Part shown: positions 1 through 10,683 of the stretch, in pieces
Numbering within the stretch: position 1 is the first letter of the stretch
Layout of the letters: each line of letters opens with the position of its first letter
NCBI GenBank assembly: GCA_964652675.1
Contig: CAZZDZ010000005.1
Coordinates: 1 to 50,393, forward strand
Length of the DNA stretch: 50,393 nt
Origin: an uncultured Pirellulaceae bacterium
GTDB taxonomy: Bacteria; Planctomycetota; Planctomycetia; Pirellulales; Pirellulaceae
Direction: 5' to 3'
The notes under the pieces: generated by a model
Databases searched by the model: none
What the model saw: only the letters and a program-made list of their open reading frames with translations
What the model was told of the DNA's origin: nothing
Program-made: the position numbers and the translations under genes

Positions 1-96
1 GTTCGGCCACAATAAATCGACAAGTCGTCAAGACTTTCGGTTCTATGCGTCTTTGCCGAAAGTCTCCACGACTTCCGCTACGTTTTTTCAAGCAAG

Positions 97-345
97 TTAC
101 TTGCTTGCTTGGACAGCAGCGACGACTTCGTTGGTCTCTGGCCACCGCTTGCGAAAGAGCATGGCCAGCAAGCCGCCTTTTCGTGAAACGACTGTCTTGC
201 CATCGACGACCACATCGAATTGGCCTCGACTGCCTGTTTCGATCTTAACGTCGATTCCGATCGCGTCCTCAATGGCGGTAGCGTAACTCGCTACTCGTGG
301 TCGATACGCCTGTCATGTAGGGCAATGGATGATGGTTACTTGCAT
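97..345 (-). CDS. Rdx-family (SelW/SelT/SelH-like) selenoprotein, 82 aa, Sec encoded by in-frame UGA at 315..313
   Basis: Manual translation gives MQVTIIHCPT-U-QAYRPRVASYATAIEDAIGIDVKIETGSRGQFDVVVDGKTVVSRKGG...WPETNEVVAAVQASK*. It has CxxU after the first beta-strand, the Rdx signature GxFxVxVDG and a C-terminal WP. GAGGGG RBS upstream; starts 25 nt after the hemA stop. Absent from the ORF track because of the TGA. Confidence 0.88.
274..310 (-). promoter_or_regulatory. Putative bacterial SECIS element directly 3' of the UGA
   Basis: The mRNA after UGA reads CA-GGCG-UAUCGACCACGA-GUAGCG-AGUUA-CGCUAC-CGCC. This gives a perfect 6-bp upper stem, a 5-nt loop with G at position 2 followed by U, the loop 24 nt from the UGA, and a possible GGCG/CGCC lower stem. 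It fits the bacterial SECIS consensus. Confidence 0.7.
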
Positions 346-370
346 CGTTTTGCGTTCCCCTCGTTATTGG

Positions 371-1654
371 TTAAGAATCGTCACCTAGTTTGAAGAGATA
401 CCGCAGGGCTTCCAAGAGTCCTCGCTCGTGGCCTTCGGCTGCGTCGTCTCGCAGTGATGCCAGTGGCGGATGCAGTAGCTTGTTGATCAATCGATCAAAA
501 GACTTTTCGATCTCTTTTGCAACGGATTCGTCAACGTTGTTGTTTTGTAGCTTGCTGGTCAGTCGTGCCAACTCTTCTTGCTTTAATTCGTGTGCTTGTT
601 CGCGTAGGCGACGAACGACGGGACCGGTTGCCCGATGGTTCATATCTTGCATGAACCGCTGTGTTTCTTCTTCGATGATCGCCAGCGCCTTGGGCCATTC
701 CTTTTCACGTTCGCGACGATTGCGTTCGCATGCGCTTTGCAAGTCATCGATGTGATACAGATAGACACTGGTCATATCACCAATTGCGGCTTCAAAATCG
801 CGTGGCACGGCCAAGTCTAAGATCAGCATCAAGCGGTTTTGACGCTGAGTATGTAGCGGTTCAAAATCTGCGGCGGTCAAAATCGGCTCGGTCGCTGATG
901 TTGTACCAATCAACAAATCGGCTTGTACAACCAACTTGTGCAGATCGCTCCAACTGCCGCTTTGAACGCCGAATTCGCTTGCCAACGCGTCAGCCCGTTC
1001 ACGGGAGCGGTTCACGACACAAATCTGCTTTGCGTTAGCCTGTTTCAGATATCGAAGTGTTTCTTCGCCCATCTCGCCAGCGCCACAGATCACGACCTTT
1101 TTGTCTGACAACGAATCGAAGACTTCCGGAACGACTTCGCCAATTGCAACGCTTGGGATACTAACGCGCCGACGATGGATAGCGGTATCGGTTTGGACGC
1201 GTTTGGCGGCCCGGTTGGCAGCTTGAAAAACCGTGTGGGTTGCGGCGCCGGCGGATCCCGATTCGCAGGCCTTGTCGTATGCCTGTTTGACTTGCGACAA
1301 GATCTGCGATTCGCCCAGCACCATCGAATCCAAACTGGCGGCCACCGTAAAGAGGTGTTTGACGGCATCGCTGCCACTGCGAAAAATCATCTGGTCGACG
1401 ACTTCTGCAGGTGTCAGTTCGTGTTGCTCCGCCAGAAACGCAGCCACGCTGTCACGATCCAAATCTTGGTCACCACTGGTCGATGTATAAAGTTCGACGC
1501 GATTACAAGTGCTCAACAGCACCAGTTCGCTGGCGGGAAACCGCTTGCGAAACGCACTGAGCGTTTGGTCGATTTGGTCAGCGGAAAACGAAATGCGTTC
1601 CCGGAATTCAACGGCCGCATCTTGATGGCTGCAACCAATCATTTGCAGCTTCAT
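371..1654 (-). CDS. hemA: Glutamyl-tRNA reductase
   Basis: LSTCNRVELY catalytic Cys motif, SLDSMVLGESQILSQVK, GAGEMG Rossmann motif, DLAVPRD. Confidence 0.97.
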   Translation of the reverse strand: MKLQMIGCSHQDAAVEFRERISFSADQIDQTLSAFRKRFPASELVLLSTCNRVELYTSTSGDQDLDRDSVAAFLAEQHELTPAEVVDQMIFRSGSDAVKHLFTVAASLDSMVLGESQILSQVKQAYDKACESGSAGAATHTVFQAANRAAKRVQTDTAIHRRRVSIPSVAIGEVVPEVFDSLSDKKVVICGAGEMGEETLRYLKQANAKQICVVNRSRERADALASEFGVQSGSWSDLHKLVVQADLLIGTTSATEPILTAADFEPLHTQRQNRLMLILDLAVPRDFEAAIGDMTSVYLYHIDDLQSACERNRREREKEWPKALAIIEEETQRFMQDMNHRATGPVVRRLREQAHELKQEELARLTSKLQNNNVDESVAKEIEKSFDRLINKLLHPPLASLRDDAAEGHERGLLEALRYLFKLGDDS

Positions 1655-2592
1655 TGGTTGGACTCCCAGTCTTTGTCCATACCAAGTGGTTCATCAGATG
1701 CAAACAAGTGGGCGACGACTGCGGATTTCGTTTGATCGATCCAGACGCTGACGTCTTTGGTCGTTTGCCCATGGGATCCTCGTAAGACACTGAACATTGC
1801 CAAGATCAAGAAACCGAGACTTGCCAAAGTCAAATACACGGCTTTGCGTCCTCGGCTGGCCGGGACGTATAAAAATTCGAGTGCCGTCGTTCCCAACAAC
1901 CAGAAAAACAACAGCAAACTAAATAGCACGCCCCCTTCGGTCCAACCGATTTGACCGCTTCGGTTCAGGTTCATCACCATTCCAGCGAGCACACCGACGG
2001 CGACGGCGATCGTGCTGGTCACCAAACATCGCCGGTTCATTCGGCCGAGTGTTTCCAAAGTTGGCAACCGTAACGCCGAGCCGGCTTTCTTTTGCTTTAG
2101 TCGCGACGACTGAACGAGGTACATGATGCCGGCTAGGAAACCAATCAGCACCGCACCGGCGCCGACCATCATTGCCATTCCGTGAACGGTTCCCCAAACA
2201 CCAACCGCTTCGGTCCGCGAAAATGGTTGCATGTCGCGAACATAGACACCTAACCCAATCGTGGCCAACACGGCTGGCAAAAAGAAAAAACTGATGATCG
2301 TATCGGGGCGGCGCAGATACAAAATCAAAAAACAGATCGCCAGTCCCAATGCCAGTAGGTGAGACCAATCTGACCAAGTCGCCAACAACCCCACATCCGC
2401 GTGTTCCCCACCATCAACAGCCCGTAGCGTCAAATAGCAAACGTGGGTAAACAGTCCGATCACCATCATCACGATCACCGCCAGCCCACGACCAGGAATG
2501 CGACCGAGCAAACGCAACAGTTCTAAAACCAGCACAACAAGGTAACTGGTAAAGAAGCAGGTGACGGAGATCTCGCGAAGGATTGCGAGCAT
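1651..2592 (-). CDS. CcsA/HemX-like cytochrome c assembly family membrane protein
   Basis: About 8 TM helices, conserved His residues (FTHV, TVHG, GSHG), LPTLETL motif, degenerate WWD region; ATGA overlap with hemA. Confidence 0.8.
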   Translation of the reverse strand: MLAILREISVTCFFTSYLVVLVLELLRLLGRIPGRGLAVIVMMVIGLFTHVCYLTLRAVDGGEHADVGLLATWSDWSHLLALGLAICFLILYLRRPDTIISFFFLPAVLATIGLGVYVRDMQPFSRTEAVGVWGTVHGMAMMVGAGAVLIGFLAGIMYLVQSSRLKQKKAGSALRLPTLETLGRMNRRCLVTSTIAVAVGVLAGMVMNLNRSGQIGWTEGGVLFSLLLFFWLLGTTALEFLYVPASRGRKAVYLTLASLGFLILAMFSVLRGSHGQTTKDVSVWIDQTKSAVVAHLFASDEPLGMDKDWESNQ

Positions 2593-3140
2593 GGCAGGAT
2601 TTCATGTGAGAAAGTGACGGCACAACCCTTCATAGTACACATTCGCCGATAAATGTCAGCGCGGTGACTAATGTGCTTTCAACGAAAATCCGCAATCTTC
2701 GTCGCGCAGACAGCCAACGGGCAGCCAGCACACCGCAAACGCGGCGCGAACCAATTGCTGATAGAACTCGTCTGTTTAGCCAGACGCCGGGATTGGGCTG
2801 TGATTTTACGAGCCAGTAGGCTGTGATTTTGTGAGCCGAAGCCCCGATTGCTAACGTGTACTGCCGATCCAGTAACCGGGTCACCCTAAACGGCGCAGGA
2901 TAACCGAGTGAACCTCGTTTGCACGCCAACGACACTTCGTCAATTTACCTGACAGCGCAAAATCGAACGCAGTTCCGGCACACAAAACGTTTACTTGTTA
3001 CGGCCACCACAAATCGGCTCAGAGTGCGAACGTTTCTTATCAACGATCTGAAATAGCGCAAGCTTCGCTACCTCTCTGGCCGTTACCCACTCTGGCAGCG
3101 AGAGAAGCTGTCACCCAACCAACCTTCATGGAGAGTAAAA

Positions 3141-8100: not shown

Positions 8101-10683
8101 TTACCAGGGTTTATCTTTCCAGCAGCGAATGTCGATCTGGCCTTTGTCATCGATCTTCACGCGGATGGCGCCGACTTTTGCGGTCACGTGAACTCCGCTG
8201 CCGGTAACCGCTAGCATCTGAGCAACTTCGACGCGGCCAGCGCGCCGGCTACCGCTGACCGCAGTCTCGCTTGGCCTTGCCCACTGCAAAACAGATTCGG
8301 CATCCATTGTCAGGCTGCCGTGGTGAGGTGCCATCAAAACGCCGCCCGGTTTGGGGCGTGGTTGATTGATCAAAACTTGAGTTCCGGGCGGTTCCAAGTC
8401 GCCGGGCAGTAGCAGAACGCGACCGCCATTTTGAATGCTCAGCACGATGCTGTTTGCATTGTCGTTGCCGCCAACTCCAGCCAGCGGTGGATGCAACACT
8501 TCAAGCTTACGGTCGCTGGTTGCCACTGTTTGCCCGGCCCAGGTCTCATGAACGGCCACATCGTATTGCTGGATCGCCGCACGTGTTGCGTCCAACGCTC
8601 CGGATTCGTCTTGAGCCAACATTCCTGGCGGAGTGACAATCTGGTCACAACTGAAACGCTTCAAAACGCCGGGCATTGCGTTGTAGTGATCCGAGTCAGC
8701 ATGCGATAGCACGATGCCATTGAGGTGTGTCACGCCCATCGACCAAAGAGTCGCATCGATGTCACGACTGCTGCCCTGGTCGTTTGCCATCCGACCACAA
8801 TCGTAAAGCCAAACGTCGTCATCGCTAAATCGCAGGACGACGCTTGTGCCGTGGCCGACGTCAACAAAGGTTGCTTCGATGGCACCTTGTTGCAGCGGCG
8901 CCGGCCACGTTGCCAGAACGTATGCGATCACGCTCCAAATCAGAATCCACGAACGACGTAGCCACTTGATTCGTTCGCGCCACATCAACGATCCGACCAA
9001 GACGACATAAAACACCGCAATCCAAATTCCCGGCGGTGATGGCAACCAAAAGTGCCCCATTGGAATCGAGGCCGCAATCTGAATGATGCAATGCATCAAC
9101 CACAAAACGGCTGAACAAAGCAAGCCAAAAACGCTGCCCACTGGTGTCGAAAAAATACCCGACAACACAGTACAAACACCAAAGCCCAACGCAAAAATCA
9201 GTAGCGGCGACAAAAGAACGTTCGTAACAACGCTGATGGGCGACACGACATGAAAGTGATACCAGACCAACGGCACGCTGGTGGCAGTGACACACGCGCT
9301 GAACCAAGCGAGTTGTCCGACGTATCTCAACAGAAAACGACTCCAACGCGCAATCACCGAACGTGACCCATCCGACAATCGTCGCAAGCGTTCTTCTTGT
9401 TGTCGCGCCTGTTCAACGGCAGCAGATTCGCCGCGATGTCGCTGCCCACACAACAGCAACGTCGCCACGGCCAAAAACGAAAGCTGCACACCGACCGCCG
9501 TTGCGTTTTGCGGGTTGTAGAAAAGTAACAACAGCGCCGCAAACGCCAACGTGTTCATCGGCTGCATTGGCCGTCGCAGCCACATCGAAAACAGCAACGC
9601 CGCGACTAAAAACGCGGCCCGCATCACCGGCGGACGACCACCTGTAATCGCGACATAGAAAACGCAAACAGACAGAATCCAGATTGTCTCAGTAGTTCGT
9701 GACATGCGAAAGAAAAACGCGACGATTTTTGCCAGCACAACGATGATGGCAAGATGCATACCGCTGACTGAAAGTAGATGCACTGTTCCGGTCACCAACA
9801 ACAAATCACGCGTATCGGGTTCCACAAATTCACGCTGACCAATCACCAACGCGATTGCGAGCGGTCCTGCCGAATCCGTCGTGTGCTGCAACAACAATTC
9901 TCGGCTTGTACTTGCGAAATGTGCGATCGGCGACATGACCGCTGAGATCCCCGAATACCGACGACTGAGCAATAAAATTTGGTCTTTGGATTCGACATCG
10001 ATCCGCGCATGCAAAGATCGACGCCGATAGACGTCACGCAAATCTCGTTCGCCGGGATTGGTCGGTCCATCAAAAGCGCTTAACAATCCATAGATTTCTA
10101 ATTCGTCTCCAGGTCGTCGATCGTCTAATTCGCCGTCGACCACTGCCAACAGTCGTCCCGAGAGTGGTTTGAATTGATTTCCAACGCGAGCCTGTTGCAA
10201 AGAGCATTCGAATTGCGTCTGCCACTGACTGTGGTCGCGACGTCTTGGGAAATTTGCCAGCGGATGGCGTCGCAAAACGATTGCCCGATCGATCGTGGCG
10301 CGAACGATTGCGGGCTGTGGTTCGGTTGACAGAATTTGGTGAACGGTTGCCGATGAGTGTTTTGTAATGACGGCCGAATGCCGCGCAGCAAACAACGGCA
10401 AACAGATCAACGCCGCAATCAGCCAAGAAAGCTCGCCCCTACGCAGTACCACCCACAGCGACATCGCAGCCAGGATCGATCCCCACAACAGATAAGTCTC
10501 CCATCCATGCAGGGAGATTGCTGACCCGATCAGGATCCCGATGACGGCAAAAGACGCGATAAAAACGAGGGGTAATTGATGAACGGCTCGCCGCAAGACA
10601 CCATGTTGGTTCAGAATGAGGCGGGAGCGCAACGATAGCCACCACGAAAACCTTTCTCGCGCAAGATTCGTTGTATCCGCCAT
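8101..10683 (-). CDS. comEC: ComEC/Rec2 DNA internalization competence protein
   Basis: HLLSVSGMH competence motif, many TMs, metallo-beta-lactamase motifs DVGHG, SHADSDH, GDLE, PHHGS; start codon uncertain. Confidence 0.92.
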   Translation of the reverse strand: MADTTNLARERFSWWLSLRSRLILNQHGVLRRAVHQLPLVFIASFAVIGILIGSAISLHGWETYLLWGSILAAMSLWVVLRRGELSWLIAALICLPLFAARHSAVITKHSSATVHQILSTEPQPAIVRATIDRAIVLRRHPLANFPRRRDHSQWQTQFECSLQQARVGNQFKPLSGRLLAVVDGELDDRRPGDELEIYGLLSAFDGPTNPGERDLRDVYRRRSLHARIDVESKDQILLLSRRYSGISAVMSPIAHFASTSRELLLQHTTDSAGPLAIALVIGQREFVEPDTRDLLLVTGTVHLLSVSGMHLAIIVVLAKIVAFFFRMSRTTETIWILSVCVFYVAITGGRPPVMRAAFLVAALLFSMWLRRPMQPMNTLAFAALLLLFYNPQNATAVGVQLSFLAVATLLLCGQRHRGESAAVEQARQQEERLRRLSDGSRSVIARWSRFLLRYVGQLAWFSACVTATSVPLVWYHFHVVSPISVVTNVLLSPLLIFALGFGVCTVLSGIFSTPVGSVFGLLCSAVLWLMHCIIQIAASIPMGHFWLPSPPGIWIAVFYVVLVGSLMWRERIKWLRRSWILIWSVIAYVLATWPAPLQQGAIEATFVDVGHGTSVVLRFSDDDVWLYDCGRMANDQGSSRDIDATLWSMGVTHLNGIVLSHADSDHYNAMPGVLKRFSCDQIVTPPGMLAQDESGALDATRAAIQQYDVAVHETWAGQTVATSDRKLEVLHPPLAGVGGNDNANSIVLSIQNGGRVLLLPGDLEPPGTQVLINQPRPKPGGVLMAPHHGSLTMDAESVLQWARPSETAVSGSRRAGRVEVAQMLAVTGSGVHVTAKVGAIRVKIDDKGQIDIRCWKDKPW

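What the first reader, a model, noticed from the sequence alone, without database searches (positions are those of the whole stretch)
97..345. Hidden selenoprotein (CxxU Rdx family) closing the hemX/ccsA-hemA operon
Seen: an 82-codon minus-strand frame with RBS, interrupted only by one TGA that falls exactly at the second position of a C-P-T-U motif, followed by the Rdx signature GQFDVVVDG. Established: SelW/SelT/SelH (Rdx) proteins use CxxU/CxxC, and gene callers routinely miss them. Inference: its position 25 nt behind hemA, which is itself coupled to a HemX/CcsA-like gene, suggests co-transcription and possibly selenium-dependent redox control of GluTR (which has a catalytic Cys) or of heme delivery. 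I know of no such linkage being described.
Basis: partly seen in the sequence, partly recalled or inferred. Interest (0 to 1): 0.85.

Follow-up and report, generated by a model that had tools for sequence, protein, structure and literature searches.

The report
SelW-like selenoprotein gene parked behind hemA
This is a real 82-codon gene for a small SelW-like (Rdx) redox protein whose in-frame UGA is very likely read as selenocysteine; the family has been known since 2005, and its place behind the heme-synthesis gene hemA was found in no other genome examined, so it is probably an accident of gene order rather than a link to heme control.

Summary
Window 345-97 (minus strand) is an 82-codon Rdx gene (PF10262 above cut-off; predicted SelW fold) with TGA at codon 11 in C-P-T-U. 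The genome has selB, selA, selD and selC on one contig. All 65 related loci fetched have TGA at the same codon, and the hairpin 18 nt downstream meets the published bacterial SECIS model, with compensatory third-position changes (95 of 102 pairs against 44 in shuffles). The proposed hemA link is not supported: no Rdx near hemA in 29 other genomes (5 of the same genus, where scpB follows hemA), and no hemA beside 71 other Rdx loci; the nearest congener's copy follows recA. Co-transcription here is likely (25-nt gap, no terminator-like site) but looks like a recent, lineage-specific arrangement. The protein belongs to a mostly planctomycete clade carrying an extra short basic amphipathic helix, the one unusual feature. 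The scan noted this family earlier in other planctomycete genomes. Verdict: new member of a known kind, low interest.

The parts
97..345 (-). Rdx/SelW-like selenoprotein gene, 82 codons plus TAA
313..315 (-). in-frame TGA at codon 11 (U of C8-P-T-U11), predicted selenocysteine
   Evidence: TGA at this codon in 65 of 65 related loci
278..294 (-). SECIS upper stem and apical loop (GUAGCG / AGUUA / CGCUAC), loop 24 nt after the UGA; the predicted longer stem spans about 309-263
   Evidence: model in PMC13188914
357..362 (-). ribosome-binding site GAGGGG, 11 nt before the ATG
   Evidence: sequence
142..177 (-). codons 57-68 (KGGLLAMLFRKR): clade-specific insertion of about 8 residues, predicted short basic amphipathic helix (residues 59-64)
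22..74 (.). inverted-repeat pair of a dispersed palindromic repeat directly after the gene, at the contig end
371..1654 (-). hemA, glutamyl-tRNA reductase (neighbour, not shown to be functionally linked)
   Evidence: TIGR01035 377.9 bits, over cut-off
1651..2592 (-). hemX/ccsA-like membrane protein gene (PF01578), overlaps hemA by 4 nt
   Evidence: stays with hemA in 28 of 30 loci

Best explanation
The gene encodes a small SelW-like (Rdx) protein whose UGA is very likely decoded as selenocysteine by the genome's own SelA/SelB/SelC/SelD system using the hairpin just downstream, and which likely works as a general thiol/selenol redox protein that came to lie behind hemA only in this lineage. Shown: the frame, the Rdx match, the Sec machinery, the invariant TGA, the covarying hairpin, the lack of conserved synteny. 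Inferred: SelB-tRNA(Sec) binds the G-containing apical loop and inserts Sec at codon 11; Cys8 and Sec11 then cycle between selenenylsulfide and thiol/selenol states at the start of helix 1 of the thioredoxin-like fold, reducing or reshuffling disulfides on partner proteins; the extra basic amphipathic helix may serve as a membrane-surface or partner-binding patch. Also inferred: the gene is transcribed as a passenger on the hemX-hemA mRNA, after a local insertion or rearrangement separated hemA from scpB, without a dedicated role in heme synthesis.
For: Rdx family hit over cut-off; model pLDDT 90.5 matching bacterial SelW-related structures 3dex, 2oka, 2p0g at TM 0.78-0.79. selB, selA, selD over cut-off and tRNA-Sec(UCA) on contig C214. 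TGA at this codon in 65 of 65 related loci. Hairpin: G at loop position 2 in 51 of 51 distinct sequences, loop 21 or 24 nt from UGA, third-position pairs Watson-Crick in 95 of 102 against mean 43.8, maximum 60 in 5000 synonymous shuffles. 79 of 81 family genomes with a TGA-type Rdx have a selA match. No synteny: Rdx profile hits 1 of 30 hemA loci (the window itself), positive control 10 of 10; no hemA in 71 other Rdx loci; neighbours of clade members differ from genome to genome; the congener G153 copy follows recA; in congeners scpB follows hemA.
Against: No expression or proteomic evidence was obtained. On its own the hairpin is only modestly stable against shuffles (z -1.5 for 61 nt, 12 of 200 as good; z -2.4 for 43 nt, 4 of 200). 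TIGR02174 is missed by 1.6 bits. The 25-nt gap is among the tightest upstream gaps of the 33 clade loci listed, and GC/GC3 of the gene match hemA, so it does not look foreign. No genome of the same species was available, so 'recent' is bounded only at the species level. The substrate of bacterial Rdx proteins is not established in the papers I saw.
Confidence: 0.85

Rival explanations
1. The selenoprotein was recruited into the hemX-hemA operon as a dedicated redox partner that keeps GluTR's catalytic cysteine reduced or works with membrane HemX to tune heme synthesis.
For: 25-nt gap, own RBS, same strand, no terminator-like site between the genes; GluTR carries the STCNR cysteine (Cys50 here; its catalytic role is recalled); the predicted amphipathic helix could place the protein at the membrane near HemX.
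Against: Adjacency seen in 1 of 30 hemA loci and 0 of 71 other Rdx loci; 5 of 5 congeners have selA and 4 of 5 an Rdx gene, yet none behind hemA; the real partner hemX stays adjacent in 28 of 30, and in 106 of 113 genomes in PMC5801465 (passages).
Confidence: 0.05
2. The gene is a real selenoprotein gene but a separate transcription unit, driven by a promoter inside the 3' end of hemA, so it is not even co-transcribed.
For: Most clade members stand 130-370 nt behind their upstream neighbour or face away from it, so the gene normally has its own promoter.
Against: Only 25 nt are available and the consensus scan found no minus-strand promoter-like site within hemA; the only one lies at 2659-2632, upstream of the hemX-like gene. 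The scan is weak (3 found, 1.8 expected).
Confidence: 0.07
3. The TGA is a true stop (nonsense pseudogene) or is read as Trp, or translation starts at GTA/GTG-like codons behind it to give a 65-residue protein without the redox motif, as databases annotate.
For: 16 of the 19 database homologs are 55-72 aa forms lacking the N-terminus, and three full-length ones show W at the site.
Against: TGA stops end ordinary genes in this window (for example the hemX-like gene), tRNA-Sec and SelB are present, the codon and the ten codons before it are conserved across phyla, and a near-identical locus (L136) has TGA where database entry P0009 has W, which points to a gene-caller code artefact.
Confidence: 0.03

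Closest known systems
Bacterial SelW-like (SELENOW-like) selenoproteins, Pfam PF10262 Rdx, TIGR02174 CXXU_selWTH (PMC1088965, PMC2398784, PMC13188914; passages seen)
   Same: N-terminal CxxU, GxF(D/E)V strand motif, thioredoxin-like fold, in-frame UGA with a coding-region SECIS, about 70-90 residues.
   Different: An insertion of about 8 residues (predicted basic amphipathic helix) before the last helix and one extra residue after the Sec; scores just under the TIGR02174 cut-off; sits behind hemA.
Mariniblastus fucicola WP_075085087.1 'SelT/SelW/SelH family protein' (65 aa)
   Same: 67% identical over the shared part, same insertion.
   Different: Annotated without the N-terminal CxxU part; its genomic context was not examined.
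Solved bacterial SelW-related proteins 3dex (SAV_2001), 2oka, 2p0g, 2obk, 2ojl, 2fa8; mouse SelW 2npb; human MIEN1 2ljk
   Same: Same fold by Foldseek (TM 0.76-0.80 for the bacterial entries).
   Different: 17-25% identity; the bacterial entries are recalled to be Cys forms (not checked here).
hemX-hemA (gtrR) gene pair (PMC5801465; passages seen)
   Same: PF01578 membrane protein gene adjacent to hemA, reported also in Planctomycetes.
   Different: Already described; no Rdx gene is part of it in the passages seen or in 29 other loci examined.

Membership tests
Rdx / SelW-like family | Match to PF10262 above the gathering score | tested here: met
   36.1 bits against 22.6, positions 1-73 of 74
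Rdx / SelW-like family | Match to TIGR02174 above its cut-off | tested here: not met
   32.6 bits against 34.2, full-length match, E 7.1e-8; the insertion probably costs the difference (inference)
Rdx / SelW-like family | CxxU/CxxC after the first strand | tested here: met
   C8 and U11, both invariant in the 59-row alignment
Rdx / SelW-like family | SelW-type thioredoxin-like fold | tested here: met
   predicted model pLDDT 90.5; best Foldseek hits are SelW-related structures
Rdx / SelW-like family | Redox activity of the motif | not testable with these tools
   needs an assay
Bacterial selenoprotein | selA, selB, selC and selD in the genome | tested here: met
   all on contig C214, each over its cut-off
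Bacterial selenoprotein | SECIS: 3-9 nt loop, 4-16 bp upper stem, G in first two loop positions, 16-37 nt from UGA, energy at or below -7.5 kcal/mol (PMC13188914) | tested here: met
   5-nt loop AGUUA, 6-bp stem, 24 nt, -18.1 kcal/mol for the 61-nt stretch; covariation in relatives
Bacterial selenoprotein | UGA aligned with Sec or Cys in homologs | tested here: met
   TGA in 65 of 65 loci; Cys at this place in MIEN1 2ljk
Bacterial selenoprotein | Selenium shown in the protein | not testable with these tools
   needs 75Se labelling or mass spectrometry
Conserved member of the hemX-hemA operon | Adjacency to hemA kept in relatives | tested here: not met
   1 of 30 hemA loci, 0 of 71 other Rdx loci
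Conserved member of the hemX-hemA operon | One transcript with hemA | tested here: inconclusive
   25-nt gap and no terminator-like site; no RNA data available

The most novel reading that the evidence does not exclude
A membrane-leaning Rdx selenoprotein (extra amphipathic helix) has been freshly captured by the hemX-hemA operon in this species and now acts as a selenium-dependent redox switch on GluTR or HemX, tying heme synthesis to selenium supply.
Probability: 0.04. Interest if true: 0.7.

Novelty: new member of a known kind. Interest (0 to 1): 0.2.

Why it matters
As it stands it corrects an annotation (gene callers cut the active site off) and adds to the picture that Sec use is common in this planctomycete family (selA match in 115 of 151 genomes, TGA-type Rdx in 81 of 151), a group that a full-text search for 'selenoprotein' with 'Pirellulaceae' or 'Planctomycetes' and 'SelW' barely touches. 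The helix-bearing clade is a reasonable handle for asking what bacterial Rdx proteins act on. If the heme link were real it would be a new selenium-dependent control point of tetrapyrrole synthesis, but comparative genomics gives it no support.

Tried and rejected
RNA evidence: no RNA holder listed for window 90-2600; three same-study metatranscriptome assemblies gave no laid contig; this is no evidence either way. Sequence search of the PDB with the single protein gave only a non-significant MIEN1 match (E 0.34); the fold search settled it. The first synteny test used a single-sequence query that misses canonical Rdx genes (it missed L036 and L032), so it was repeated with a profile and a positive control. 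An order-wide search at E 1e-9 found the close clade in 0 of 400 other genomes, so it gave no new neighbours. A crude genome-wide scan for other Sec genes gave 16 candidates, of which only two looked like real proteins (this gene and an HMA-domain gene), and it missed the second Rdx gene, so it is not a selenoproteome. My pattern for the insertion labelled 22 of the 27 rows of the clade and so the tree's label test is not usable; four of the five unlabelled rows show the insertion and one is cut by a contig end. Composition gave no sign of foreign origin. Complex prediction with GluTR was not run: adjacency in one genome is no reason to claim binding. Papers: searches 'glutamyl-tRNA reductase' + 'selenoprotein' listed 4 genome papers with one mention each (listing only); none was read, none suggests a link by title or abstract start.

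Full report
Observation. The minus-strand frame 345-97 reads 82 codons and a TAA, with a single internal TGA at 315-313 (codon 11) in C-P-T-U. GAGGGG lies 11 nt before the ATG, hemA ends 25 nt before it, and the upstream PF01578 gene overlaps hemA by 4 nt. With U read as C the protein matches Pfam Rdx over its whole length and above the cut-off (36.1 against 22.6 bits); TIGR02174 scores 32.6 against a cut-off of 34.2. hemA is confirmed by TIGR01035. The relatives named in the databases are Pirellulaceae and other Planctomycetota.

Is the TGA selenocysteine? The genome (96% complete, 3% contaminated) has selB, selA, a fused selD and tRNA-Sec(UCA) in one cluster on contig C214, each over its family cut-off. 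I fetched 65 related loci (13 from a 150-genome family sample; the genome's second Rdx gene; one congener; 50 from a species-wide collection). All 65 have TGA at the aligned codon (61 parsed, the other four read); none of the search patterns covered that codon. In a family-wide profile search 81 of 151 genomes had a TGA-type Rdx gene and 79 of these had a selA match; the two without are 82% and 86% complete (kin are not independent, and some selA matches are weak). Seventeen full-length matches without a stop also occur in the family and were not inspected. Database proteins are mostly cut forms of 55-72 residues (16 of 19); three full-length entries show W at the site, but a near-identical locus has TGA there, so these look like gene-caller artefacts.

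SECIS. Eighteen nt after the UGA lies a 6-bp stem with the loop AGUUA (294-278), part of a longer predicted stem (-18.1 kcal/mol; z -1.5 for 61 nt and -2.4 for 43 nt, modest on its own). [quoted passage not shown] In relatives (60 of 62 parsed loci could be anchored, 51 distinct sequences) the loop always has G in second position and starts 21 or 24 nt after the UGA; the two stem pairs formed by third codon positions are Watson-Crick in 95 of 102 cases, switching between G-C, C-G, A-U and U-A, against a mean of 43.8 and a maximum of 60 in 5000 shuffles of synonymous codons (the shuffle ignores relatedness).

Protein. The model built on a 59-row alignment has pLDDT 90.5 and the SelW topology; the best structural matches are bacterial SelW-related proteins (3dex, 2oka, 2p0g; TM about 0.79). 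It differs from the usual bacterial form by an insertion of about 8 residues before the last helix, predicted as a short helix (59-64, in the least confident part of the model, block pLDDT 77-81), basic and amphipathic in all 20 members that my pattern could cut out (no control computed). Insertion-bearing proteins form one side of a supported branch (97/91, 27 of 72 rows, short alignment, midpoint root), almost all from Planctomycetota. The close clade is scarce: 2 of 150 family genomes and 0 of 400 order genomes at E 1e-9. NCBI already names a cut member from Mariniblastus fucicola as a SelT/SelW/SelH family protein.

The hemA link. I fetched 30 of the 40 hemA matches from 41 genomes. A profile built from the alignment finds Rdx in 1 of these 30 loci, the window's own, while it finds 10 of 10 control Rdx loci not used to build it (flank 1.5 kb, shorter at a few contig ends). 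The hemX-like gene stays with hemA in 28 of 30, as described for hemX-gtrR, Planctomycetes included (PMC5801465, passages). In three of five congeners a convergent scpB follows hemA, and the other two show its acidic tail before the contig ends; scpB is there in 9 of 30 loci overall. All five congeners have selA and four have an Rdx gene elsewhere; the one congener with a copy from the insertion clade has it 199 nt behind recA. Conversely, none of 71 other Rdx loci holds hemA (the 65 above and 6 metagenome loci of the close clade; flanks 1.5-4 kb, some cut), and neighbours of the clade differ from genome to genome. In this genome the Rdx gene is followed by a dispersed palindromic repeat (158 blastn hits); the contig end shares a unique 55-mer with contig C174, whose first gene is a convergent fatty-acid desaturase, while scpB lies on another contig. 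The simplest history is a local insertion or rearrangement in this lineage that placed the gene behind hemA.

How it most likely works. Shown: frame, family, machinery, invariant UGA, covarying hairpin, missing synteny. Inferred from established knowledge of the bacterial Sec system: SelB carrying Sec-tRNA binds the apical loop and delivers Sec at codon 11, giving a Cys8-Sec11 redox pair in a thioredoxin-like fold. Inferred: the gene rides on the hemX-hemA transcript (25-nt gap, no terminator-like site between, the only minus-strand promoter-like site upstream of the hemX-like gene, a weak scan), and acts as a general redox protein, possibly at the membrane surface. No RNA data could be found to test transcription.

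Comparison with what is known. [quoted passage not shown] A 2006 survey notes few Cys homologs in Sec-using organisms (PMC1794560, passages). I found no report of an Rdx-hemA link, nor a study of the family in Planctomycetes; supplements were not read and the library lacks most subscription papers. Earlier notes of this scan describe the same family in other planctomycete genomes and other contexts; they are unchecked and were not used as support.

Verdict. A real and well-supported selenoprotein gene, an ordinary member of a known family with a small clade-specific insertion; the link to heme synthesis rests on one genome's gene order. Interest 0.2.

Noticed in passing
L076:4001-4255 and L086:4001-4252 (Planctomycetota MAGs): Two Rdx genes of the insertion clade have TGA at both redox positions (H-U-x-x-U), an apparent UxxU form; reviews seen list only CxxU for this family.
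   Followed up: partly
G000:C197 about 9237-9614 (+), L130:1238-1615: A predicted lipoprotein-like HMA-domain gene with an in-frame TGA in MH-U-GAC (UxxC) followed by a GGUCC hairpin: a second likely selenoprotein, metal-binding type.
   Followed up: partly
G000:C6:33123-33344 (+), L036: A second, canonical Rdx gene with CxxU in the same genome, over the TIGR02174 and NF041051 cut-offs.
   Followed up: yes
L124-L127 (G140, G127, G012, G070): In at least 16 of 81 family genomes with a TGA-type Rdx, a canonical copy lies within 13 kb of selA, in the order ABC-F gene, Rdx, efp-like, unknown, proC-like, unknown, selB, selA (names by eye).
   Followed up: partly
window 1-95 and G000:C174:1-155: Dispersed palindromic repeat (REP-like) with an inner perfect 24-bp inverted repeat; 158 blastn hits on 109 contigs, 44 near contig ends, so it likely breaks the assembly.
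   Followed up: partly
G000:C214:1838-8467: Sec cluster selB, transglutaminase-like gene (named by eye), selA, pyridine-nucleotide oxidoreductase-selD fusion (Cys form), selC, next to a formyltransferase-like gene.
   Followed up: partly
L040-L046, L061, L062, L067: ScpB in these planctomycetes ends in a very long Asp/Glu-rich tail of about 100-150 residues.
   Followed up: no
G000:C138, C294, C348: tRNA gene arrays of 8, 7 and 14 genes.
   Followed up: no
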